Below are positions 2,348-53,630 of a stretch of DNA of 64,000 nucleotides, one piece after another. The DNA lies in the sequence record MZ501067; one strand, given 5' to 3'. The position numbers and the translations under genes are program-made. The DNA comes from Escherichia phage FriedrichZschokke. Under the pieces are notes generated by a model, which saw only the letters and a list, made by a program, of their open reading frames with translations, made no database searches and was not told where the DNA came from. Each line of letters begins with the position of its first letter. Within the stretch, counting starts at the first letter, position 1.

Positions 2348-5044
2348 TCAGCCAAACAGGAAGTCTAACGAAGCTTTTTCTTCATAGTCCATACCAGCCG
2401 ATTCACACATGCCTGCAAGCGGTTTAACAAACGATTTTTGGAACAAAGTTGAGTAGTCAATCCAAGACAGTACGTCAGAACGAATTTCTTTTGGAAGTTC
2501 TGTACCCGACGGCCAAGCAATGCATTTGTCACCAAATGGATTTCCTTCACGCAATGGAAGAACCATTACTTTATTTCCATCCAAAATTGGAGCTACACCT
2601 AAACCGCTAACAGCTCGACGATAAGTTAGCACACCACGAATATGGAACGGACATTTAAATCCTGGCCAACCTTTATCATCATATTTCGCTATATCGTTCG
2701 CAGTTTTTACTTCAGCAATAACTTTATAGTCAAGTTGACGATATTCTTTCTCGAAGTTCTTGTAATATTCTTGGACAGACTCTTCACCTTCCTGAAGAAT
2801 ACGACGAATACTTTCTTCGAGAGCTTCTTGAACCGCTTTAGGTGTTGAACTCTGCTGAGTTTCCATACCCATGATTTTTAGATGTGGTTCAGCAAAACGC
2901 TTATCTTCCATATCATAAACGTTCAGAGCATAACGCTTTTTCGCTTTCCAAAATCCACCAACACCCTTTGAACCGAGCGGAGGGCAAGAAATAGCTTCAC
3001 GGTCCATATGCATCAGATGCTCGCGGTTATTCATATAATCACATAACTCACGATATGCAACATCAATCATAGGTTCCATCTTTTTCTTACCGAACTGATT
3101 CATGAATTCAACTAAATCGTTCTGCTCTTTGAATCGGTCAAGACCAACTTTTTCAATAACTTTATCTACACAAACATATACCGAATCAGTATCACCTGCT
3201 GCGATGAAATCTTCGCCATTAGTTCCACATACTTTATTCAGATACTCATTAATTTTACGAGCAATCCACTGAATACCAACTTGGCCGAAAATTGTGATAG
3301 CAGTAGCATTTCGCAAATCATAGTAACGGAAATGAATATTACCAAGAGCACCGTAAAGGCTGTTAATAAGAATTTTACGGTTCAGCTGATTTGTGTTAGC
3401 AAGTGTAGCCGCTTTTTCACATTCTTCAATCAAACTATTGAGAACAGATTCAGTATAATTCGATAGTTCATTTAAGAAATCATCACTGAACTTAACATAT
3501 CGTTCAACTTCAGGTTTAGTTGAACAAGACCCTGCGCCTTTCATAATAATCTTTTTAATAGCTTCGGCATTCATTTCTTCAGCGAACATTTTCTTTTTCC
3601 AATCTTTACGCTGGAAAAATACTTTAGCGATTTCCTTTGGAATGATACCTTCTTGATGCTTATCATACATCCATCCATTCGGAGAACAAGAATATTCATC
3701 ACTCGGTTTAGGAGCTGTTCCTGCGATATATTCATGAATTGGATGAACTTTAAACTGACCACGAATAGTCTCAGGACTAATGTTAACCTGACGAATAATG
3801 CTCGGATACAGAGACGTCAAGTCAAAACTCATAATATATCGACGAGCAATTGGTTTAGGTTCAAATACGAATGCACCTGGAAAACTTTGTTTAACGTGCG
3901 AACCTTGTTGAGGAATAACCTTATGTTCACCTTTCAATGAGTTAAAAATAATAGCATCCCAAGTTTTAATAGGACTCATTACACCAGAAAAAGGCATTTT
4001 AGCGTAATAAGACATACTTAAAACTAGATCGATAAACCCGCGGATTTTATCAATTGCTTGAACTGATTCTACGTCAATGATGTTATAACTAATGTATCGT
4101 TGATGATTAGTCTCACGAAGTTTATTAATAGGACCATCATACGGTAATTTACCTTTTTTGGTTTCATGTTGAGCAACTGATTCCAAAGAGAATGACGGCA
4201 AATTAGTAAAAGCGAATTTCTTGTACAAATCTAAATAATCAAGAATAGATACGCCATCAATAGAATAAATTTCTTTGCTACCGTACATATTTTGAATTAG
4301 TTTAGATTTTACTCGACCGATTGGAGAGAAACGTTTCATACTACGTTCACCGAGAACCATTTTAACGCGATTCATGATATACGGAACGTCAAATCCCTCA
4401 ATATTCCAACCAGTAAAAATAGCAGGTCGTTTCTGTTCCCAAAGATTAATATATTCCATGAGCATATCACGCTCATTATCGAATGGCATATAAATTACTC
4501 GGTCAAGAATTTCTTGAGGAACTTCATCACCACCTTCACAGTCAAGCTTAGCAGCTAACTTTGCATCCCATTTTGATACTGAACCGTACATTGAATTCAA
4601 AAGGTCGAAAACATAAAAACGATCATCAATTGAATCGTAATGAGTGATAGCATCAATTTCATATTCAGCTTTCATTGGGTCAGGAAATTTATCACCAGTA
4701 ACCTCAATGTCACAGTTAGCTACACGAACAAATTTTCGGTCATAAACAATTTCTGAACCGTATGTATCACTGATATAAGCGAGTTTAAAATCGTTCATAC
4801 CGAGAGCTTCGAGACCGATGTCTTCCATTCGTTTCATCCAATCTCGAGCATCTTTCATTGATGGAAATTTTTGAGGAGCGCAGTTTTTACCATAGATGTC
4901 TTTGTACTTTGACTCTTCCTTACAATGCCTAAACATAGTTGGAAGATATTCTACTTCACGAGTACGTTCCTTTCCGTTTTCATCAATATAACGTTCAACA
5001 ATGTTATTTCCGACTGTTTCGATAGAGATATAAAATTCTTTCAT
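2348..5044 (-). CDS. 43: DNA polymerase (family B)
   Basis: 898 aa ORF; length and sequence match T4 gp43 as recalled; synteny with regA-62-44-45. Confidence 0.97.
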   Translation of the reverse strand: MKEFYISIETVGNNIVERYIDENGKERTREVEYLPTMFRHCKEESKYKDIYGKNCAPQKFPSMKDARDWMKRMEDIGLEALGMNDFKLAYISDTYGSEIVYDRKFVRVANCDIEVTGDKFPDPMKAEYEIDAITHYDSIDDRFYVFDLLNSMYGSVSKWDAKLAAKLDCEGGDEVPQEILDRVIYMPFDNERDMLMEYINLWEQKRPAIFTGWNIEGFDVPYIMNRVKMVLGERSMKRFSPIGRVKSKLIQNMYGSKEIYSIDGVSILDYLDLYKKFAFTNLPSFSLESVAQHETKKGKLPYDGPINKLRETNHQRYISYNIIDVESVQAIDKIRGFIDLVLSMSYYAKMPFSGVMSPIKTWDAIIFNSLKGEHKVIPQQGSHVKQSFPGAFVFEPKPIARRYIMSFDLTSLYPSIIRQVNISPETIRGQFKVHPIHEYIAGTAPKPSDEYSCSPNGWMYDKHQEGIIPKEIAKVFFQRKDWKKKMFAEEMNAEAIKKIIMKGAGSCSTKPEVERYVKFSDDFLNELSNYTESVLNSLIEECEKAATLANTNQLNRKILINSLYGALGNIHFRYYDLRNATAITIFGQVGIQWIARKINEYLNKVCGTNGEDFIAAGDTDSVYVCVDKVIEKVGLDRFKEQNDLVEFMNQFGKKKMEPMIDVAYRELCDYMNNREHLMHMDREAISCPPLGSKGVGGFWKAKKRYALNVYDMEDKRFAEPHLKIMGMETQQSSTPKAVQEALEESIRRILQEGEESVQEYYKNFEKEYRQLDYKVIAEVKTANDIAKYDDKGWPGFKCPFHIRGVLTYRRAVSGLGVAPILDGNKVMVLPLREGNPFGDKCIAWPSGTELPKEIRSDVLSWIDYSTLFQKSFVKPLAGMCESAGMDYEEKASLDFLFG

Positions 5045-5082
5045 AGATATTCCTTAGTTTATAGCCCGAGTTATTAGGCTCT
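5045..5082 (-). promoter_or_regulatory. Gene 43 translational operator (hairpin plus Shine-Dalgarno)
   Basis: mRNA reads AGCC-UAAUAACUC-GGGCU (5 bp stem, 8 nt loop) then AUAAACUAAGGAAUAUCUAUG; matches the gp43 autoregulatory operator as I recall it. Confidence 0.55.
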
Positions 5083-5100
5083 TGATATATTATACTCCAA

Positions 5101-5122
5101 ATAAGGGGCCGAAGCCCCTTGC
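5101..5122 (-). terminator. Hairpin / weak intrinsic terminator between regA and 43
   Basis: Minus RNA aaggggc-UUCG-gccccuu followed by AUUUGG. Confidence 0.45.
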
Positions 5123-5491
5123 TTAATTACCAATCGTATATTTAGGAACGAGTTTCCATTCATGTTTTTGTTTAAAAGAAATAACTCGGAAGTTATTAGT
5201 TAAATCTTTCATAAAAGTTCTTTGACCAGGAACAATTTCAATCAGTCCCCAATCTTCTAACAGCCATGCAATCGAATCACGACGAACTTCATCTTCTTCT
5301 GTCATTTCAACTTGGCGACCATCCATACGAAGCATTTCTTTAAAATGAACGATATAGTATAGTCCTTTTTTCTGAAGAATATGACAGGACTGATACAGAA
5401 CTTTATCTTTATTATTAGCAATTCCCATACGAGTCAAAGTTTCTTTTACTTTCAGAAAATCTTCAGGTTTTTTAAGAGTAATTTCAATCAT
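5123..5491 (-). CDS. regA: Translational repressor RegA
   Basis: 122 aa; position between 62 and 43; matches T4 RegA length and sequence as recalled. Confidence 0.9.
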   Translation of the reverse strand: MIEITLKKPEDFLKVKETLTRMGIANNKDKVLYQSCHILQKKGLYYIVHFKEMLRMDGRQVEMTEEDEVRRDSIAWLLEDWGLIEIVPGQRTFMKDLTNNFRVISFKQKHEWKLVPKYTIGN

Positions 5492-5492
5492 T

Positions 5493-6056
5493 TTACCATT
5501 CCAATGCTAGTTTTTTGAGTTGTTTCTGTTCTTTTACGTTCTTAGTCACTTCTTTCAAAAAATCATCCGTGACTAATCCTTTAAGTTCTTTTAATACTAA
5601 AGGTAGTTTTCCATTTTTAGTAAGAATTGATTTATAGTTAATTGCATCATTTGTATTAACTTGATACCGCTTAGCAAGTAACTTAATAATCAATACTTCG
5701 GTGGAATCTTCAACTAGTTTTGCCCATTTACCATATCTTTTACCACGAGGAACTGCAGCCATTAGATAATTAAAATGAGCTTCATCACTTAAGCCTGATC
5801 CAATTAAATTCATAGCATATACAGCTGGCATGCACTCTGGAAATTGTGATAATGCATTTTCAACCATGAATTTTGAATAATCTTTTTGAGCAATAGAGCA
5901 TTTAGTTTTATTATTAATAGCTCCAATTATTTCAAAAAATTCATTTTCAGCTTTTTCTTTAAAAGTATCAGCAGCAGATTGGACAGCTGTCCAATCTTTA
6001 GAATACCAAGCAACTTGATGCTCGTTTAATTGAATATCATCTTCAAATAAGCTCAT
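5493..6056 (-). CDS. 62: Clamp loader small subunit
   Basis: 187 aa; immediately downstream of 44. Confidence 0.9.
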
Positions 6057-28980: not shown

Positions 28981-29011
28981 TTGAAATAAAAAAGGGAGCC
29001 CGAAGGCTCCC
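28981..29011 (-). terminator. Strong intrinsic terminator
   Basis: Minus RNA gggagcc-UUCG-ggcuccc followed by UUUUUUAUUU. Confidence 0.7.
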
Positions 29012-29013
29012 TA

Positions 29014-29562
29014 TCATTTATAATAACTTCGGTGGTTTTCAAGATAGACCTTCTCAAGGAAGTCATCCCAGAAACTCATGTCTACTGTTTTAGGCATACC
29101 GTTCTTAGAAGCTTCAGTAGATGCTGCTTCTACTTGATCGACCACATCTTCCAAAAACTCTTGAACTGTTTTAAATGGATGTTTACCCAACTTCACGTCG
29201 AGAATAAATGGAGCATCTTGAAGTGGATAGACTAAGTCACCAGTTTTGTAAATTTCCAATAGTTGGAGTCCACCACGACAAGCATGACTTAGTGCTTTCC
29301 AATCAATGCCTTCATTGGCTTCGGCCTTACGAGCACGTTCACCGTATTCAGCATCTAATTTGTTCAGTGACTGCTTAAGCTCAATAAGAGAAAGCGTTGT
29401 CTGATATTTACGACCCAACACAGTGTAGAACGTTTGTGGGCCTGTTTTCTCATGATTATGGAACACCCATTCACAGAATTCGTTTTCTGGAAGACGATGC
29501 TTAATATCTTCAACTTTAGTACGACGCTGCTTAATGGAACCGTCTTCTTGGTAATCAACCAT
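29014..29562 (-). CDS. Hypothetical protein (182 aa)
   Basis: ORF starting at the ATG embedded in the CAATG junction at 29560-29564; plausible globular sequence throughout. Confidence 0.55.
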   Translation of the reverse strand: MVDYQEDGSIKQRRTKVEDIKHRLPENEFCEWVFHNHEKTGPQTFYTVLGRKYQTTLSLIELKQSLNKLDAEYGERARKAEANEGIDWKALSHACRGGLQLLEIYKTGDLVYPLQDAPFILDVKLGKHPFKTVQEFLEDVVDQVEAASTEASKNGMPKTVDMSFWDDFLEKVYLENHRSYYK

Positions 29563-30026
29563 TGCTCAGGGATTTGATTAACTACTTTCAATACATCACG
29601 TAATGCAGCCAAACGAGAACCCTTGACGCCGTATTTAGAAGCTTGCTTGCGGACATATCCTAAATATGATTTCATGTTAGTCGTATAAAAACGAGAACGG
29701 TTGTCTTGAATAAACTTCCACACATCAGGCAAATCGGATTTAACCACTAGTTCAGGTGGAGTGTGAAGCATATCCAACGCTACAGTTTCACCATCTGCTG
29801 CTAATTTAAAGAAATATTTAAGACTGTATAGTTCATGGTCAATATCATCTTTAGTGTTTTTAGATGATGTATTGTTAGTATTTTTACTCATATGCTCTTT
29901 AACATTTCCGATAAGAATATCACGAGCAGGAGGAACAAAGATTTCTTTAAAATCTACATCAGATTCTGGGGTAGAAGTTCCATAAAGATGACTACCAAAA
30001 TAGCTTTTCATTACTGTTTTCATCAT
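29364..30026 (-). CDS. Nucleotidyltransferase-fold protein (Pol-beta superfamily), 3' end uncertain
   Basis: N-terminal GSHLYGTSTPESDVDF (GS...DxD NTase signature). The ORF runs 66 codons past a CAATG junction into low-complexity sequence overlapping the next gene; the native end is probably near 29562. Confidence 0.5.
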   Translation of the reverse strand: MMKTVMKSYFGSHLYGTSTPESDVDFKEIFVPPARDILIGNVKEHMSKNTNNTSSKNTKDDIDHELYSLKYFFKLAADGETVALDMLHTPPELVVKSDLPDVWKFIQDNRSRFYTTNMKSYLGYVRKQASKYGVKGSRLAALRDVLKVVNQIPEQWLITKKTVPLSSVVLKLKILSIVFQKTNSVNGCSIIMRKQAHKRSTLCWVVNIRQRFLLLSLSSH

Positions 30027-30484
30027 TCAGCCTTATATTCAATAACAGGACATACTTTAGCTTTACGAGCTTTTAAAAATTCAACGATAACCGATTTCTT
30101 GGGTTGAATAGGAGGTAAACCTTTATACGCCCTATCAATATTTTCTACGTGTAAAGCATAATCCTTTTTCCATTTATAATCTTTATATTTTTCACGCAAA
30201 TGTGCAGGAATAACAAATGAACCGATAATAAGTAAAACAACCAAAAGCGCAAGTATAAATGCTGATGGAAGCAAAGTCCATAAACTACCAAAAATAATCC
30301 AACGTTGTAGGCTTTCTGCACAAATAATTGTTAGCCCTACGAGTATAGCACATCCAAAAATAGAAACGAAAAATGTAGGAATGGCAATAGACCAAAAATA
30401 TGCGCACAGTGTCTTAGGTCGTTGCCATTCATCGTTAAACAATTTGAATAATTTATAGTGCCAAGAGTTTTCATTAATAATCAT
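30023..30484 (-). CDS. Membrane protein (153 aa)
   Basis: Two to three hydrophobic helices (FWSIAIPTFFVSIFGCAILVGLTIICA; LLPSAFILALLVVLLIIGSFVI). Confidence 0.55.
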   Translation of the reverse strand: MIINENSWHYKLFKLFNDEWQRPKTLCAYFWSIAIPTFFVSIFGCAILVGLTIICAESLQRWIIFGSLWTLLPSAFILALLVVLLIIGSFVIPAHLREKYKDYKWKKDYALHVENIDRAYKGLPPIQPKKSVIVEFLKARKAKVCPVIEYKAE

Positions 30485-30486
30485 AA

Positions 30487-31008
30487 TTATTCTTTCATTG
30501 AAGGCGTAACGGTTGTTAAATACTTAATCATAGCTTCAGCTTCTGATTTTGATAGTGAAATTTCTTCACCGTTTTGGCGAATAGAAACAAAATCTGGATG
30601 ACGATCACCACCAGCTTTTAAAACACACATATAAGTATCAGCTTCGCCTTCAATATTTGAAATGATTGAAGCAGTTCCACATGAATGAGGTTTTTGATAA
30701 ATCAATACAGCTTTTCTTCCACCATTTGACTGTTCATAGGCTTTTAATACATCAAGCAAATCAGTTCTTTTATCAATAGCTAAGATGTTATTTTCATCTT
30801 CAATATTAAATCCTTCGGATACTTCATAAAGAGTTACCCATAAATCACCGATGTCAATAACAGCATTTACTTTTCCACGGCTTTCAAGAGTATGACAAAT
30901 TTTCTTGATTTCGTCATAACTCATTTTAATAATATCATCTCCTTGACTAAGGAAGATGTCATTTTTAAATTCAACACGAATTAAACCGCTTCCACTTGAA
31001 ATAAACAT
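30487..31008 (-). CDS. Hypothetical protein (173 aa), paralog 1 of a tandem pair
   Basis: C-terminus ...ISLSKSEAEAMIKYLTTVTPSMKE resembles the C-terminus of the adjacent 184 aa ORF. Confidence 0.55.
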   Translation of the reverse strand: MFISSGSGLIRVEFKNDIFLSQGDDIIKMSYDEIKKICHTLESRGKVNAVIDIGDLWVTLYEVSEGFNIEDENNILAIDKRTDLLDVLKAYEQSNGGRKAVLIYQKPHSCGTASIISNIEGEADTYMCVLKAGGDRHPDFVSIRQNGEEISLSKSEAEAMIKYLTTVTPSMKE

Positions 31009-31014
31009 ATTTCC

Positions 31015-31569
31015 TCACTTTGAAATCATAGTTGGAATAACAGAATCAAGATAAGTCTTTAGTGCAATAGCTTCGTCTTTGGTAAATGTGACAATATGTG
31101 CTCGAGAATCATCAATTTGACGAATAGTTAAGACATCTCCATCTTCATAACATTTTGATACGTTTAAAACAGTTTCATCATTCTGATTGCAAGCGTTAGT
31201 AATAATAGCATTGCAATTTTTAAACCATTTTAAACTATGTTTTCTTTCATTAGAATAATAAAAATATTTAATCTTATCTATAAAACTATCCCAATGGATA
31301 ACTGATAAGCATATTGACTCGCTTTCAATATTAAATCCTGGGCATGAAGAATAAAAATGAATTTTATGCTCATCATTAATGCTTACAATTTTATCAGTAT
31401 AAGGATTTTCAATTTGGGTTAAATGAATGATTTCACTAGGCGTAAAATATAGCATATCGTCTTCTTGTGTCAAACGATACATATTATTTACTTTTTCTAT
31501 AGCCAATTCACCAAAAAGTGAACTAACTTCTAATACTAATCGTTTCATATTAATCCTTTTTATTGGCAC
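31015..31569 (-). CDS. Hypothetical protein (184 aa), paralog 2 of a tandem pair
   Basis: C-terminus ...VTFTKDEAIALKTYLDSVIPTMISK. Confidence 0.55.
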   Translation of the reverse strand: MPIKRINMKRLVLEVSSLFGELAIEKVNNMYRLTQEDDMLYFTPSEIIHLTQIENPYTDKIVSINDEHKIHFYSSCPGFNIESESICLSVIHWDSFIDKIKYFYYSNERKHSLKWFKNCNAIITNACNQNDETVLNVSKCYEDGDVLTIRQIDDSRAHIVTFTKDEAIALKTYLDSVIPTMISK

Positions 31570-31828
31570 GAATTTGTTCTAAAATTTTAGAGTATTCCTT
31601 TGTATCAGATTTACGTACAATCGATACACTATACGGCATACTATCGGTGTCTTTTATAAAGCGTTCCAAATGACACTCTAATAAAATTTCTGGATTATAA
31701 ATCGTGTACATCAAATTACCTGTTGCTCCACGATATTGACAGATTTCTACTGATTGAACACCATTCCATAATTTTGTTAAGACCAAATCACCTACTTCTA
31801 ATTTAGGAAAGCCCATGTTATTCACCAA
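31550..31828 (-). CDS. Hypothetical protein (92 aa)
   Basis: ORF on the early strand. Confidence 0.5.
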   Translation of the reverse strand: MVNNMGFPKLEVGDLVLTKLWNGVQSVEICQYRGATGNLMYTIYNPEILLECHLERFIKDTDSMPYSVSIVRKSDTKEYSKILEQIRANKKD

Positions 31829-32003
31829 TTAAAGTTTCAATATAAGAATCAAGATTTACTTTAGCTTCTTCCATAAGAGTTTTGTATTTAATCTTGTTAG
31901 CATGTCCGGAGAAAGCTGATTCATCAATAACTGTTGATGTATGAACAGCTCTACTATACGTCTCAATTAATTCTCTTAATTTAAAAGCCTGCTCACTTGT
32001 CAT
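31818..32003 (-). CDS. Hypothetical protein (61 aa)
   Basis: ORF on the early strand. Confidence 0.45.
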   Translation of the reverse strand: MTSEQAFKLRELIETYSRAVHTSTVIDESAFSGHANKIKYKTLMEEAKVNLDSYIETLIGE

Positions 32004-32128
32004 TACATACTCCTTTGAATCATATCAATAATATTGTTCACCAGATTATAGGTAAACATTGGGTAATTATATTGAATCATCACATATATAACAAACAAAA
32101 CTTTCATTCTCTTCTCCTTGACAGTTGA

Positions 32129-32170
32129 CAAGATTACTATACCATAACCTTGCCAACTTGTAAACCGTTA
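32129..32170 (-). promoter_or_regulatory. Early promoter
   Basis: Minus strand: -35 TTTACA (32159-32164), 17 bp spacer, -10 TATAGT. Confidence 0.45.
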
Positions 32171-32341
32171 AATGTTGTTTTCAATAAAATTCTGAAGCTT
32201 TGTGTGAGCATCAACCATGATTTTCATTTCTTCCTTTGCGAAAGCTGTATCTCTTTCCCGAGCAGAATACTCATAGTCAGAAACTGCATTAGCATATTCT
32301 TCAATTAGCTTCATTAAAAACATCTGCTTTTCAGTTTTCAT
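32168..32341 (-). CDS. Small hypothetical protein (~57 aa)
   Basis: ORF read by hand from the reverse strand (MKTEKQMFLMKLIEEYANAV...); below the length cut-off of the supplied ORF track. Confidence 0.35.
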   Translation of the reverse strand: MKTEKQMFLMKLIEEYANAVSDYEYSARERDTAFAKEEMKIMVDAHTKLQNFIENNI

Positions 32342-32525
32342 TATTCCACCTAATCATTTCAAGATATTGAACTAACTTAGCTTTAGATTTATCCAAATCC
32401 TTTTTAGCTGCTTCTATACCGTCGTATGAATATCCTTCACAATGCTCAACTGCTAATTGATATGAATCTATTTCAATATCACGTGCTAATTTAATGATTT
32501 TTTCAAACTGTTCGCGTGTTAGCAT
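32331..32525 (-). CDS. Hypothetical protein (64 aa)
   Basis: ORF on the early strand. Confidence 0.45.
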   Translation of the reverse strand: MLTREQFEKIIKLARDIEIDSYQLAVEHCEGYSYDGIEAAKKDLDKSKAKLVQYLEMIRWNNEN

Positions 32526-32527
32526 AA

Positions 32528-32767
32528 TTAAACTCTCGTATTATGATCGATAATTTCATCAAGAAACATATCTAACGCTTCTAAAGCATTATCAACTTTA
32601 GTTTCAAAGTCTTTAATGCCTTTATTCGAAATACCCGATGAATACCAAGCAAAGTCAATCAGCTCTTCATCTGCTCTACGAATTGAAGCCACTAATTCCT
32701 TGATTTTATCTGCTCGCTCTATACTAATCATTATTCCACCACATATGACAGAGAGAATATTGCACAC
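32528..32767 (-). CDS. Hypothetical protein (79 aa)
   Basis: ORF on the early strand. Confidence 0.45.
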
Positions 32768-32980: not shown

Positions 32981-33010
32981 TAAAATGAAAAAAGTCTCCC
33001 GAAGGAGACT
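32981..33010 (-). terminator. Strong intrinsic terminator
   Basis: Minus RNA agucucc-UUCG-ggagacu followed by UUUUUCAUUUU. Confidence 0.7.
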
Positions 33011-49898: not shown

Positions 49899-50004
49899 AT
49901 ATTCCTCATAATGCTTTATAACTGTTGGTGGTATAATGGGTCTAAGTCCCTTCCATTCAATTCCATTTAGAACAAACAATAGAAAAGAATGGAAGATAAT
50001 AGAA

Positions 50005-50829
50005 TTAGATATTTGACCAGACTTTGTTTGCAGAGAAACGTTTTCCTTTTGAAACGAACTGCTGAAGTGGCATTAACACAACGTTCGCCCAGTCTTTCGG
50101 GGCGATTTCAACAAGGCTACCCATAATATTACCAGGTATATATGCCTTAATCATTTGGTCTGCACCCCTAAATCCTTTCACTTGACTCCAATCAATTTTT
50201 AATTTCGTTTTATTAGTAATAGTAGGTGTATTTGCATATTGCTTTAAAAGCTCTTCTAGAAATTGCTGACGAGCTTTAGGTGGAATATAGTGCAAGTTCA
50301 ATCCGTACATTAAGTTATGCTTACCTAAACCAAGATAAATTATCAAAGGAAATTTATCCCAGTAAGGAAGAGTTTCCTTGTGTTTAGCATCATAAGCAAA
50401 AGCATATATTCGTCCCGGCTGCGGGCGAACAACTTTATGTCCTTTTACTTGCTTAATAGTTTCAGCAAACCACTTTCTGGTTTTATTATTAATTGCTGCA
50501 CCTTCATTACGAATTTTATCGCGCAATGTTTGTCTGAATGAATTTATCATAAGCAGTTGTCTTTCTTGCTTATTGAGTTTATTCATTGGTTTTGATTCAA
50601 GCTTTTGAATCTTTTCAGCCGTTTTAATTCCTGAAGCATATTTTGACATTGCTGAAGTAAACGTAGAGTATTTGATTCCTCTTTCTTCAGCAAATTGCTT
50701 TCCTGTCATTCCTTTTGCTTTGGCCTTTTTATATTCAAGACCTATCTGAATCCATTTCTTTTCGTTTAATGATTGCTTAACCTTTGGAACTTGGGGAGTG
50801 CTTTCATTAATTATTTGAAAAATAGCCAT
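50005..50829 (-). CDS. 2: DNA end-protector protein
   Basis: 274 aa; synteny 1-3-2-4. Confidence 0.8.
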
Positions 50830-51281
50830 TATGCCCCCTTAAAGCCAAGAGCTCGTAATCCATCTTCTGTTAGAATTCTAAATTTTATTCCACGCTTTTC
50901 AGCTAAAGCTTGCGCTGCTTTCCATTTGTCGGTATTAACGGAATATGTATAAATTTCATTCATAAATCTTTTCTTCGCTGCGGTTGTTAGATGTGCTGGT
51001 TTAACTGGTGGTTGTGTTTCTTTTTTAGGTTTTATTTCAATAAAAAATTCTTGTCCAGAAGAATCTTTCATCCAAATATCCATGAAGTATCTACGTTTTT
51101 TCCCTTCTGCATTACAAAAATAAGGAATTACTGCTGTTTCACTACCCCATGCAATAATTTCTGGATTTTTATCTAACCATTCAAAAAAGAATTTTTCCCA
51201 ATTTGATCTATACGTAATTTTTTTAGGGTCACCTCTATACTTTGATATATTTTTAGGAACCCATTTTCCAGAATATGCCAT
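50829..51281 (-). CDS. 4: Head completion protein
   Basis: 150 aa; ATGA-type junction with gene 2. Confidence 0.8.
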
Positions 51282-51292
51282 TGGATTCTCCT

Positions 51293-51300
51293 TATAAATA
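51293..51300 (+). promoter_or_regulatory. Late promoter core (TATAAATA) for gene 53
   Basis: Exact TATAAATA 29 nt upstream of the gene 53 ATG. Confidence 0.6.
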
Positions 51301-51307
51301 GATAATA

Positions 51308-51315
51308 TATTTATA
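51308..51315 (-). promoter_or_regulatory. Late promoter core (TATAAATA) for gene 4, divergent from the gene 53 promoter
   Basis: Exact TATAAATA on the minus strand ~27 nt upstream of the gene 4 ATG. Confidence 0.55.
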
Positions 51316-51328
51316 AACAGGAGGGCCC

Positions 51329-51919
51329 ATGCTCTTTACATTTTTTGATCCGATTGAATATGCGGCCAAAACGGTGAATAAAAACGCGCCGACTATTCCT
51401 ATGACAGATATTTTTAGAAACTATAAAGACTATTTTAAACGCGCTCTTGCGGGATACCGCTTACGTACTTATTATATTAAAGGTTCACCACGCCCGGAAG
51501 AATTAGCAAATGCTATATATGGAAATCCGCAGTTGTATTGGGTTTTATTGATGTGTAATGATAATTATGATCCGTATTATGGATGGATTACTTCGCAAGA
51601 AGCTGCTTATCAAGCATCTATACAAAAATACAAAAACGTAGGTGGAGACCAAATAGTATATCATGTGAATGAGAATGGTGAAAAATTTTATAATTTAATA
51701 TCATACGATGATAATCCATATGTTTGGTATGACAAAGGTGATAAAGCTAGAAAATATCCTCAATATGAAGGAGCACTTGCTGCGGTAGATACGTATGAAG
51801 CTGCTGTTCTTGAAAATGAAAAACTTCGTCAAATAAAAATAATAGCAAAATCAGACATCAATTCATTTATGAACGACCTTATACGTATAATGGAGAAATC
51901 TTATGGAAATGATAAGTAA
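51329..51919 (+). CDS. 53: Baseplate wedge protein
   Basis: 196 aa; first plus-strand late gene; synteny 53-5-6-7-8. Confidence 0.9.
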   Translation: MLFTFFDPIEYAAKTVNKNAPTIPMTDIFRNYKDYFKRALAGYRLRTYYIKGSPRPEELANAIYGNPQLYWVLLMCNDNYDPYYGWITSQEAAYQASIQKYKNVGGDQIVYHVNENGEKFYNLISYDDNPYVWYDKGDKARKYPQYEGALAAVDTYEAAVLENEKLRQIKIIAKSDINSFMNDLIRIMEKSYGNDK

Positions 51920-53630
51920 TAACCTTAATTGGTTTGTTGGTGTTGTTGAAGATAGAATGGACCCATTAAAATTAGGTCGTGTTCGTGTTCGTGTAGTTGG
52001 TCTGCATCCACCTCAAAGAGCACAAGGCGACGTAATGGGTATTCCAACTGATAAATTACCATGGATGTCAGTTATTCAACCTATAACTTCTGCAGCAATG
52101 TCAGGAATTGGAGGTTCTGTTACAGGGCCAGTAGAAGGAACTAGAGTTTATGGTCATTTTTTGGACAAATGGAAAACTAACGGAATTGTCCTTGGCACGT
52201 ATGGTGGGATAGTTCGCGAAAAACCTAATAGACTTGAAGGATTTTCTGACCCAACCGGGCAGTATCCTAGACGTTTAGGAAATGATACTAACGTACTAAA
52301 CCAAGGCGGAGAAGTAGGATATGATTCCTCTTCTAACGTTATTCAAGATAGTAACTTAGACACCGCAATAAATCCCGATGATAGACCACTATCAGAGATT
52401 CCAACCGATGATAATCCAAATATGTCAATGGCTGAAATGCTTCGCCGTGATGAAGGATTAAGACTAAAAGTTTATTGGGATACCGAAGGATATCCGACAA
52501 TTGGCATTGGTCATCTTATCATGAAGCAGCCAGTTCGTGATATGGCCCAAATTAATAAAGTTTTATCAAAACAAGTTGGTCGTGAAATTACCGGAAATCC
52601 AGGTTCTATTACAATGGAAGAAGCGGTAGCTTTATTTGAGCGTGATTTGGCTGATATGCAACGTGACATTAAATCACATTCTAAAGTTGGCCCAGTTTGG
52701 CAAGCAGTTAATCGTTCTCGTCAAATGGCGTTAGAAAATATGGCATTTCAGATGGGTGTTGGCGGTGTAGCTAAATTTAACACAATGTTAACTGCCATGT
52801 TAGCAGGAGATTGGGAAAAAGCATATAAAGCCGGTCGTGATTCATTGTGGTATCAACAAACAAAAGGCCGTGCATCCCGTGTTACCATGATTATTCTTAC
52901 GGGGAATTTGGAATCATATGGTGTTGAAGTGAAAACTCCAGCTAGGTCTTTATCGGCAATGGCTGCGACTGTAACTAAATCTTCTGACCCTGCTGACCCT
53001 CCTATTCCAAATGACTCGAGAATTTTATTCAAAGAACCAGTTTCTTCATATAAAGGCGAATATCCTTATGTGCATACAATGGAAACTGAAAGTGGACATA
53101 TTCAGGAATTTGATGATACCCCTGGGCAAGAACGATATAGATTAGTTCATCCAACTGGAACTTATGAAGAAGTATCACCGTCAGGGAGAAGAACAAGAAA
53201 AACTGTTGATAATTTGTATGATATAACCAACGCTGATGGTAATTTTTTGGTAGCCGGCGATAAAAAGACTAACGTCGGTGGATCAGAAATTTATTACAAC
53301 ATGGATAATCGTCTTCACCAAATAGATGGAAGCAATACAATATTTGTACGTGGCGATGAAACTAAGACGGTTGAAGGTAATGGAACTATCCTAGTTAAAG
53401 GTAATGTTACTATTGTAGTTGAAGGTAATGCTGACATTACAGTTAAAGGAGATGCTACCACTTTAGTTGAAGGAAATCAGACTAATACAGTAAATGGAAA
53501 TCTTTCTTGGAAAGTTGCTGGGACAGTTGATTGGGACGTTGGTGGTGATTGGACAGAAAAAATGGCATCTATGAGTTCTATTTCATCTGGTCAATACACA
53601 ATTGATGGATCGAGGATTGACATTGGCTAA
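51903..53630 (+). CDS. 5: Baseplate central spike with lysozyme domain
   Basis: 575 aa; N-terminal OB region, central T4L-like lysozyme domain (MAEMLRRDEGLRLKVYWDTEGYPTIGIGHL), C-terminal beta-helix VxGxxxxx octapeptide repeats. Confidence 0.95.
   Translation: MEMISNNLNWFVGVVEDRMDPLKLGRVRVRVVGLHPPQRAQGDVMGIPTDKLPWMSVIQPITSAAMSGIGGSVTGPVEGTRVYGHFLDKWKTNGIVLGTYGGIVREKPNRLEGFSDPTGQYPRRLGNDTNVLNQGGEVGYDSSSNVIQDSNLDTAINPDDRPLSEIPTDDNPNMSMAEMLRRDEGLRLKVYWDTEGYPTIGIGHLIMKQPVRDMAQINKVLSKQVGREITGNPGSITMEEAVALFERDLADMQRDIKSHSKVGPVWQAVNRSRQMALENMAFQMGVGGVAKFNTMLTAMLAGDWEKAYKAGRDSLWYQQTKGRASRVTMIILTGNLESYGVEVKTPARSLSAMAATVTKSSDPADPPIPNDSRILFKEPVSSYKGEYPYVHTMETESGHIQEFDDTPGQERYRLVHPTGTYEEVSPSGRRTRKTVDNLYDITNADGNFLVAGDKKTNVGGSEIYYNMDNRLHQIDGSNTIFVRGDETKTVEGNGTILVKGNVTIVVEGNADITVKGDATTLVEGNQTNTVNGNLSWKVAGTVDWDVGGDWTEKMASMSSISSGQYTIDGSRIDIG

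What the first reader, a model, noticed from the sequence alone, without database searches (positions are those of the whole stretch)
30487..31569. Tandem pair of ~180 aa paralogues with a shared C-terminal segment
Adjacent ORFs of 173 and 184 aa end in ...SKSEAEAMIKYLTTVTPSMKE and ...TKDEAIALKTYLDSVIPTMISK. This points to a local duplication followed by divergence. They sit between a membrane protein and the NTase-fold gene.
Basis: seen in the sequence. Interest (0 to 1): 0.45.

Follow-up and report, generated by a model that had tools for sequence, protein, structure and literature searches.

The report
Tandem MobD.1-family paralogues, T4-like phage
Two neighbouring genes of a T4-like phage are real but anciently diverged copies of an already catalogued, non-essential phage gene (T4 mobD.1); they are predicted to fold like the nucleic-acid-binding protein Pur-alpha, and their function is untested.

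Summary
The two minus-strand ORFs (A 30487-31008, 173 aa; B 31015-31548, 177 aa from its likely ATG) are paralogues over their whole length, not only at the C-terminus: 27% identity over 176 aa, E=1e-11, shuffle z=15.6.

The window is a Tequatrovirus. B is T4 mobD.1. A is the gene RB14/RB32 records already note as 'similar to mobD.1'. Both match Pfam T4_y05I_N + T4_y05I_C and PHROG 1502, so the family and the paralogy are already on record. No function is known, and T4 survives deletion of the region.

New here:
- Repeat I and the C-domain are detectably homologous.
- Both genes are under purifying selection (omega 0.10 and 0.29).
- A is not sister to B in the tree, so a recent local duplication is not shown.
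- One or two genes of this repeat family always lie directly upstream of a conserved two-helix membrane protein and near the NrdC.11/RlaP RNA-repair nucleotidyltransferase, in five named Tevenvirinae genera and further unclassified contigs.

The proteins are acidic, so nucleic-acid binding is uncertain. Ordinary finding with modest interest.

The parts
31015..31548 (-). ORF B = mobD.1 orthologue (177 aa from ATG at 31548; the mechanical ORF from GTG runs to 31569). Pfam T4_y05I_N maps to about 31249-31539 and T4_y05I_C to about 31027-31236.
   Evidence: 84% identical to T4 mobD.1 by tblastn. Pfam E=7e-38 and 6e-21. PHROG 1502 E=1.5e-80. Start codon and ribosome-binding site. Related records annotate the same MKRL start. 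AF2 model pLDDT 79.
30487..31008 (-). ORF A = RB32ORF097c-type paralogue (173 aa). Pfam T4_y05I_N maps to about 30724-31005 and T4_y05I_C to about 30496-30705. Its GAGGA ribosome-binding site overlaps the TGA stop of B, and the intergenic gap is 6 nt.
   Evidence: Pfam E=3e-33 and 3.5e-23. PHROG 1502 E=5e-66. Found at 80% identity or more in 433 phage records. omega=0.10. AF2 model pLDDT 81.
30023..30484 (-). Small membrane protein (153 aa; two hydrophobic helices; 57-aa C-terminal tail with pI 9.6) = RB32ORF096c. It is the conserved downstream partner gene of the family.
   Evidence: Hydropathy and tail charge. Homologues directly downstream of y05I-family genes in Mosig-, Dhaka-, Moon- and Jiaodavirus, blastp E from 1e-17 to 1e-44. 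PHROG 944 'membrane protein'. omega=0.17.
29014..30026 (-). nrdC.11, an RlaP-family nucleotidyltransferase. It is the last gene of the apparent transcription unit. In this window it is split into two overlapping ORFs by a 1-nt deletion in a GGG run near 29560.
   Evidence: Pfam RlaP E=1.3e-10. Alignment to RB14 shows the single-base gap. The gene is intact in RB14, FriedrichMiescher and others.
31550..31816 (-). Phage Tudor-domain gene directly upstream of B. Its stop lies 1 nt before B's ATG.
   Evidence: Pfam Phage_tudor E=2.7e-40. Annotated as 267 nt in related records.
28993..29012 (-). Terminator-like hairpin (8 bp, 6 GC pairs, followed by a T run) just after nrdC.11. It is the likely 3' end of the unit that contains A and B.
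   Evidence: Annotated as a rho-independent terminator in phage wV7.
32066..32164 (-). Two sigma-70-like promoter matches in the 165-nt gap upstream of the DUF7438-Tudor-B-A-membrane-NTase run. These are candidate early promoters by consensus match only.
   Evidence: TTTACA-17-TATAGT with TG, and TTGTTA-17-TATAAT, each 10 of 12 matches.

Best explanation
A and B are two functional, anciently diverged paralogues of the T4 MobD.1 (Y05I) family. This is a family of about 20-kDa acidic cytoplasmic accessory proteins found only in T4-like enterobacterial phages.

Proposed architecture: each protein is built from three beta-beta-beta-beta-alpha repeats of the PC4-like/PUR fold. Repeats I and II pack into an intramolecular domain, as in Pur-alpha repeats I-II. 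The C-terminal repeat is a lone unit that I infer must pair with another such repeat. The proteins would then act as homodimers and/or an A-B heterodimer.

Proposed context: they are co-transcribed and translationally coupled with a conserved two-helix membrane protein and the NrdC.11/RlaP RNA 3'-end nucleotidyltransferase. I propose they act as the soluble binding subunit of this dispensable module, holding single-stranded RNA or DNA, or a basic protein surface.

Shown: paralogy, family membership, purifying selection, predicted fold, conserved gene order.
Inferred: dimerisation through the C-domain, the ligand, and any link to RNA repair.
For: - Paralogy and family.
- Repeats: the predicted secondary structure shows three beta-rich units each ending in a helix. 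hhalign matches repeat I to the C-domain at probability 89%, E=2e-6, with a shared hxQxDD...FTxxE motif.
- Modularity: the C-domain exists as stand-alone proteins of about 70-87 aa. This parallels single-repeat Pur proteins, which dimerise (PMC7549692).
- Both copies are functional: omega is 0.10 for A and 0.29 for B.
- Interchangeable C-domains: a natural in-frame B::A hybrid occurs in at least 4 contigs.
- Module: y05I-family gene(s), then a homologous membrane protein, then the RlaP NTase (sometimes after an inserted gene), in Tequatro-, Mosig-, Dhaka-, Moon- and Jiaodavirus and in three metagenomic or unclassified loci.
- Neighbour function: RlaP enzymes extend damaged RNA 3' ends.
- Expression signals: tight gene spacing and flanking terminators.
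Against: - Nearly all members are acidic (pI 4.2-5.3; net charge down to about -22). The most conserved residues are acidic or polar (QEDD, E18, N-x-E-x-E). This is atypical for PC4-like nucleic-acid-binding surfaces.
- There is no sequence match to the PurA, Whirly or PC4 families at E<=1, nor to any PDB sequence.
- C-domain model confidence is only moderate (pLDDT 53-90), and pTM is about 0.55.
- T4 keeps mobD.1 without A or the membrane protein, so the coupling is not obligatory.
- The genes are often broken: both in T2, and B in RB14.
- T4 survives deletion of the region.
Confidence: 0.5

Rival explanations
1. Same fold, different ligand. The proteins are protein-binding adaptors or nucleic-acid mimics rather than nucleic-acid binders. 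Their acidic surface would bind a basic partner, such as the basic cytoplasmic tail of the downstream membrane protein or a host DNA/RNA-binding protein. Whirly-fold SsgA/SsgB proteins, which are described as cell-division proteins rather than nucleic-acid binders (from general knowledge), would be an analogy.
For: - Family-wide acidity and conserved acidic motifs.
- The membrane protein's C-tail has pI 9.6 with 15 K+R.
- That gene is the most constant neighbour, always directly downstream.
Against: - The best structural matches are nucleic-acid binders: Pur-alpha, MRP, Whirly, PC4.
- The conserved nearby enzyme acts on RNA.
- T4 retains mobD.1 without the membrane protein.
- No interaction has been tested.
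Confidence: 0.3
2. Origin rival. A is not a local duplicate of B. It would be a homologue acquired by recombination from another, unsampled T4-like lineage and inserted next to the resident gene.
For: - A is equidistant (about 30%) from all lineages and is not sister to B.
- The locus is a known mosaic hot spot: mobD HNH insertion in T4, a very divergent B allele in AV120 next to a conserved A, and an extra seg-like endonuclease gene nearby in RB14.
Against: - No A-type gene was found outside Tequatrovirus among 50,697 phage records or 1.84 billion representative proteins.
- Tandem same-strand placement is what a duplication produces.
- Long-branch effects could hide a sister relationship in a 13-sequence NJ tree.
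Confidence: 0.3
3. One or both copies are decaying, functionless remnants of a duplication.
For: - Both genes are split across three reading frames in T2, and B is frameshifted in RB14.
- Fragmentary N-only or C-only products occur in several records.
- The region is deletable in T4.
Against: - In the window both ORFs are intact and have good ribosome-binding sites.
- omega is 0.10 (A) and 0.29 (B) across 7 sequences per gene (8 phages in all).
- A is 90-100% conserved in 428 records.
Confidence: 0.03
4. They are conventional double-stranded-DNA-binding transcription factors, as the Pfam name 'putative transcription factor' suggests.
For: The Pfam description. Pur-alpha and Whirly/PBF-2 are annotated as transcription regulators.
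Against: - No helix-turn-helix or other dsDNA-binding domain was detected.
- The proteins are acidic.
- PC4-like folds bind single strands.
- The name appears to derive from fold resemblance only. No paper mentions a function.
Confidence: 0.05

Closest known systems
T4 MobD.1 / Y05I family (Pfam PF24449 T4_y05I_N + PF24448 T4_y05I_C; PHROG 1502)
   Same: B is the orthologue (84% identity to T4 mobD.1). A has the same two domains in the same order and a similar length. Both score far above the Pfam gathering thresholds.
   Different: A is a second, very divergent copy (27-30% identity) that T4 itself lacks. T4 has the MobD HNH homing endonuclease where A and the membrane protein lie here.
Pur-alpha (PURA; PUR repeats I-III; PDB 3k44, 5fgo, 8chw)
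   Same: It is the best structural match to both models. Both have three beta-beta-beta-beta-alpha repeats, with the first two forming one domain followed by a lone third repeat. In Pur-alpha that third repeat mediates dimerisation. A 2020 review calls this combination unique to Pur-alpha (PMC7549692).
Single-repeat PC4-like proteins (Borrelia Bpur 3n8b, PC4/Sub1, phage T5 PC4 homologue 4bg7, YdbC)
   Different: There is no sequence relationship. Those proteins are basic ssDNA/RNA binders with known functions.
Whirly-fold SsgA/SsgB cell-division proteins (3cm1)
   Different: It comes from an unrelated organism and context. Only the fold is shared.

Membership tests
T4 MobD.1/Y05I family (Pfam PF24449 + PF24448) | Significant match to both the N- and C-domain models, above the gathering score and in N-to-C order | tested here: met
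   A scores 114.8 and 82.2 bits. B scores 129.7 and 75.1 bits. Cut-offs are 24.9 and 27.
T4 MobD.1/Y05I family | Syntenic position in the rI - nrdC.11 segment of a T4-like genome | tested here: met
   The window order tk, rI.1, rI, rI.-1, mobD.5-.2, Tudor, B, A, membrane protein, nrdC.11 matches the RB14 annotation.
PUR family (Pur-alpha; Pfam PurA PF04845) | Sequence match to the PUR repeat profile | tested here: not met
   No PurA hit at E<=1 in Pfam. No PDB sequence hit below E=0.28.
PUR family (Pur-alpha) | [quoted passage not shown] | tested here: met
PUR family (Pur-alpha) | A third repeat that dimerises to form an intermolecular domain | tested here: inconclusive
   The C-domain is predicted as beta strands plus a long helix. 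It is homologous to repeat I and exists as a stand-alone protein. No multimer model or experiment was possible.
PUR / PC4-like superfamily | Binding of single-stranded DNA or RNA on the beta-sheet face | not testable with these tools
   Only indirect and conflicting evidence exists: fold resemblance against family-wide acidity.
DUF7189 (PF23819) | Match above the gathering score | tested here: not met
   A scores 21.1 bits against a cut-off of 27, E=3.7e-4, over 27 residues. A y05I_C protein of KpV477 matches DUF7189 over nearly its full length at E=5e-4. This suggests related single-repeat units, not membership.
Recent local tandem duplication | The two copies are each other's closest relatives | tested here: not met
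   B groups with Mosigvirus orthologues (79% bootstrap). A falls outside, and its placement has 34% support. No significant DNA similarity remains apart from one 16-nt identity.
Known anti-phage defence or counter-defence proteins (PADLOC-DB) | Match to any model | tested here: not met
   No hits for A or B at E<=1.

The most novel reading that the evidence does not exclude
The variable set of PUR-like repeat proteins (y05I, y05I_C, DUF7189), the conserved two-helix membrane protein and the NrdC.11/RlaP nucleotidyltransferase together form a so far unrecognised Tevenvirinae module for RNA repair or counter-defence. The repeat proteins would assemble by pairing their lone repeats and would present or mimic damaged RNA. 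The second paralogue in Tequatrovirus would create a heterodimer with a new specificity. This would also make the family the first non-eukaryotic example of the Pur-alpha 'type I plus type II' domain layout.
Probability: 0.15. Interest if true: 0.6.

Novelty: new member of a known kind. Interest (0 to 1): 0.3.

Why it matters
As a tandem duplication this is routine. T4-like genomes are full of small paralogous accessory genes, and this pair is already in Pfam and in GenBank notes.

The value lies in giving a first structural and contextual handle on an uncharacterised, widely conserved early-gene cassette.
- The proteins have a Pur-alpha-like three-repeat layout, which a review describes as unique to Pur-alpha.
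- The repeat content varies between genera.
- The cassette is constantly linked to a small membrane protein and to an RlaP nucleotidyltransferase, an enzyme family recently shown to repair RNA 3' ends.

If that linkage is functional, it would point to an additional RNA-repair or anti-defence activity in T4-like phages.

Tried and rejected
- My local tblastn of A against the window did not report B. BLASTP and shuffle tests showed that the similarity is real, so the miss was a tblastn sensitivity issue.
- P0046, a 1572-aa protein with 13-14 'matches' to the C-domain, is spurious. Each segment scores 1-3 bits and the total carries a high bias.
- A strong promoter-like site inside B (31446-31473, 11 of 12 matches) coincides with the codons of the conserved YRLTQEDDMLYF motif and is weaker in T4 and T6. 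It cannot be told apart from coding constraint.
- No hits were found in NCBIfam, PADLOC or PDB sequences.
- No further family members occur in the 64-kb window.
- hhalign found no similarity of repeat II to repeat I or to the C-domain. Sequence evidence for three homologous repeats therefore covers only repeat I and the C-domain.
- The afdb50 fold library was unavailable.
- The BFVD viral fold search returned only members of the same family.
- Literature searches for mobD.1, y05I and the Pfam accessions found no functional study.

Full report
**What is there.** The window is a Tequatrovirus (T4-like) genome segment, 99.9% identical over 4 kb to Escherichia phage FriedrichMiescher. The region is a run of minus-strand early-type genes in the T4 order tk, rI.1, rI, rI.-1, mobD.5-mobD.2, then the genes of interest, then nrdC.11 and nrdC.10.
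- ORF A (30487-31008, 173 aa) corresponds to RB32ORF097c.
- ORF B corresponds to mobD.1. B most likely starts at the ATG at 31548 (177 aa). That ATG has an AAGGA ribosome-binding site and lies 1 nt after the stop of the upstream Tudor-domain gene. Five related records annotate the start at this MKRL ATG; four give 534 nt and T6 543 nt.
- A's GAGGA ribosome-binding site overlaps B's stop codon, and only 6 nt separate the genes.
- In the direction of transcription the order is Tudor -> B -> A -> membrane protein -> NTase.

**Is the similarity real?** Yes, and it is full-length.
- BLASTP gives E=1e-11 with 27% identity over 176 aa.
- Against 2000 shuffles the Smith-Waterman score has z=15.6. N-halves alone give z=9.8 and C-halves alone z=6.9. 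With the final 25 residues removed, z is still 10.7.
- Both proteins match Pfam T4_y05I_N and T4_y05I_C far above threshold, and both match PHROG 1502.

**Already known?** The family is catalogued in Pfam ('y05I-like putative transcription factor').
- I found no functional literature. 'mobD.1' occurs only in a table of a 2010 review of T4 homing endonucleases.
- Viable genome-reduced T4 mutants lack the fragment nrdC.11-mobD.3, so mobD.1 is dispensable in the laboratory (PMC9825161).
- RefSeq's product name 'molybdopterin-guanine dinucleotide biosynthesis protein MobD' for these genes appears to be a name-propagation error. In T4, mobD is an HNH homing endonuclease gene.

**Distribution and copy number.**
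- An exhaustive profile search of 1.84 billion representative proteins found only 27 hits. Every member whose genomic context I examined lies in a T4-like phage locus. One of the 27 (P0046) is spurious.
- In the phage collection, B-like genes occur in 726 records and A-type genes at 80% identity or more in 433. The T4-type mobD gene at 95% or more occurs in 47.
- Locus variants:
  - Most Tequatroviruses: B, A, membrane protein, NTase.
  - T4: mobD.1, MobD HNH, NTase, with neither A nor the membrane protein.
  - AV120: a very divergent allele in the B slot (49% identity) next to a conserved A.
  - Mosigvirus and Dhakavirus: a single copy.
  - Moonvirus KM16: two C-domain-only genes in tandem.
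  - Jiaodavirus KpV477: a DUF7189 gene plus a C-domain-only gene.
- A natural B::A hybrid (P0021) occurs in at least four assembled contigs. It joins B nt 1-379 to A nt 364-520 at a 7-nt microhomology, an in-register 525-nt deletion.
- In T2 both genes are broken across three reading frames. In RB14, B is frameshifted.

**Are both copies functional?** Across 7 sequences per gene (8 phages in all), pairwise Nei-Gojobori omega has a median of 0.10 for A, 0.29 for B and 0.17 for the membrane-protein gene. Both are under purifying selection where they are intact.

**Origin.** In an NJ tree, B groups with the Mosigvirus single-copy genes (79% bootstrap). A is about 30% identical to every lineage and is not sister to B; the relevant node has 34% support. 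No significant DNA similarity remains apart from one 16-nt identity. A-type genes were seen only in Tequatrovirus. The data do not distinguish between an old duplication with losses, a duplication followed by a burst of divergence, and acquisition from an unsampled relative.

**Structure.** AlphaFold2 models have pLDDT 79 (B) and 81 (A), with pTM about 0.55. The N-domain is modelled confidently and the C-domain moderately.
- Each model shows three beta-rich units that each end in a helix.
- Further hits are PUR repeat III of fly and human, Borrelia Pur-alpha, Whirly proteins, MRP1/2, PC4/Sub1, the phage T5 PC4 homologue and SsgA-like protein.
- At the sequence level, the beta3-beta4-alpha part of repeat I aligns with the C-domain (hhalign probability 89%, E=2e-6) through a shared hxQxDD...FTxxE motif. 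Repeat II shows no such signal.
- DUF7189 proteins and y05I_C proteins cross-match weakly, which suggests one family of single-repeat units.
- A review of PC4-like folds states that Pur-alpha is the only reported protein combining an intramolecular two-repeat domain with a lone repeat that dimerises (PMC7549692). The y05I layout resembles this, but dimerisation here is an inference. I had no multimer prediction available and could not inspect which repeat the single-repeat PDB chains align to.

**Context.** The downstream 153-aa protein has two hydrophobic helices and a basic 57-aa tail.
- Its homologues (E from 1e-17 to 1e-44) lie directly downstream of the y05I-family gene(s) in the five named genera examined.
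- A gene of the same size occupies that position in two further metagenomic contigs and one unclassified phage genome.
- The RlaP-family NTase NrdC.11 follows, sometimes after an inserted gene.
- RlaP enzymes add one or two nucleotides to damaged RNA 3' ends, and T4 NrdC.11 belongs to the family with unknown function (bioRxiv 10.64898/2025.12.29.696909).
- Terminator-like hairpins at 32993-33010 and 28993-29012, together with promoter-like sites at 32066-32164, bracket a plausible unit: DUF7438, Tudor, B, A, membrane protein, NTase.

**Mechanism and uncertainty.** I commit to the following: A and B are dimerising PC4-like/PUR-like repeat proteins that serve as the soluble binding component of this accessory cassette (confidence about 0.5).
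- The ligand is open. The fold and the RNA-acting neighbour favour single-stranded nucleic acid.
- The consistent acidity (pI 4.2-5.3 in all but one member) and the conserved acidic motifs favour a protein partner or a mimic role. One candidate partner is the basic tail of the membrane protein.
- Pseudogene status is rejected for this window.
- A role as a classical transcription factor has no support beyond the Pfam name.

**Verdict.** This is a correct observation of an already catalogued paralogous pair. Its interest is modest and comes from the Pur-alpha-like architecture and the conserved cassette, neither of which has been tested experimentally.

Noticed in passing
window 29014-30026 (frameshift near 29560): nrdC.11 (the RlaP nucleotidyltransferase) is split into two overlapping ORFs by a 1-nt deletion in a GGG run, relative to RB14. 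The 99.9%-identical FriedrichMiescher and all other records checked have an intact gene of 336-337 aa. This is either a real inactivation or a sequence error.
   Followed up: partly
window 31818-32003, 32168-32341, 32331-32525, 32528-32767: Four adjacent small genes (57-79 aa) all belong to Pfam DUF7438 (E from 1e-13 to 1e-17). This is a second, larger tandem paralogue array just upstream. Related loci carry further DUF7438 copies around tk.
   Followed up: partly
L002-L005 (Logan contigs), gene at L002 4001-4540: A natural single-gene B::A hybrid (P0021, 179 aa) was created by an in-register 525-nt deletion between the two paralogues at a 7-nt microhomology. It was seen in at least four contigs, each from a different sequencing run.
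   Followed up: yes
L009 (phage T2) 1916-3016; L001 (RB14) 5020-5579: In T2 both paralogues are each broken across three reading frames. In RB14, mobD.1 is frameshifted into 137-aa and 52-aa pieces. Fragmentary N-only and C-only products also appear in other records (ECO4, fPS-90).
   Followed up: partly
RefSeq records: There are propagated misannotations at this locus. mobD.1 and other mobD.x genes are called 'molybdopterin-guanine dinucleotide biosynthesis protein MobD'. A 61-aa DUF7438 gene is called 'helicase loader'. nrdC.11 is called 'thioredoxin' in several GenBank records.
   Followed up: no
window 31446-31473 (minus strand, inside ORF B): There is a near-consensus sigma-70 promoter match (TTGACA-16-TATATT with TG, 11 of 12). 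It overlaps the codons of the conserved YRLTQEDDMLYF motif and is weaker (TTGACG) in T4 and T6. Promoter function cannot be separated from coding constraint.
   Followed up: partly
L021 (phage AV120) 2510-3052: This Tequatrovirus has a B-slot allele only 49% identical to the window's B (P0027 type, closer to Mosigvirus). A P0027-type protein shares an almost identical last ~45 residues with the window's B. A conserved A-type gene follows. This points to mosaic exchange within the gene.
   Followed up: partly
window about 50000-52000: GC skew changes sign from negative to positive at about 50-52 kb. This is consistent with a switch from minus-strand to plus-strand gene blocks.
   Followed up: no
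window 30487-30492: The window's ORF A ends ...SMKE, whereas the six other A-type genes examined (and cluster representative P0040) end ...SMKG.
   Followed up: no
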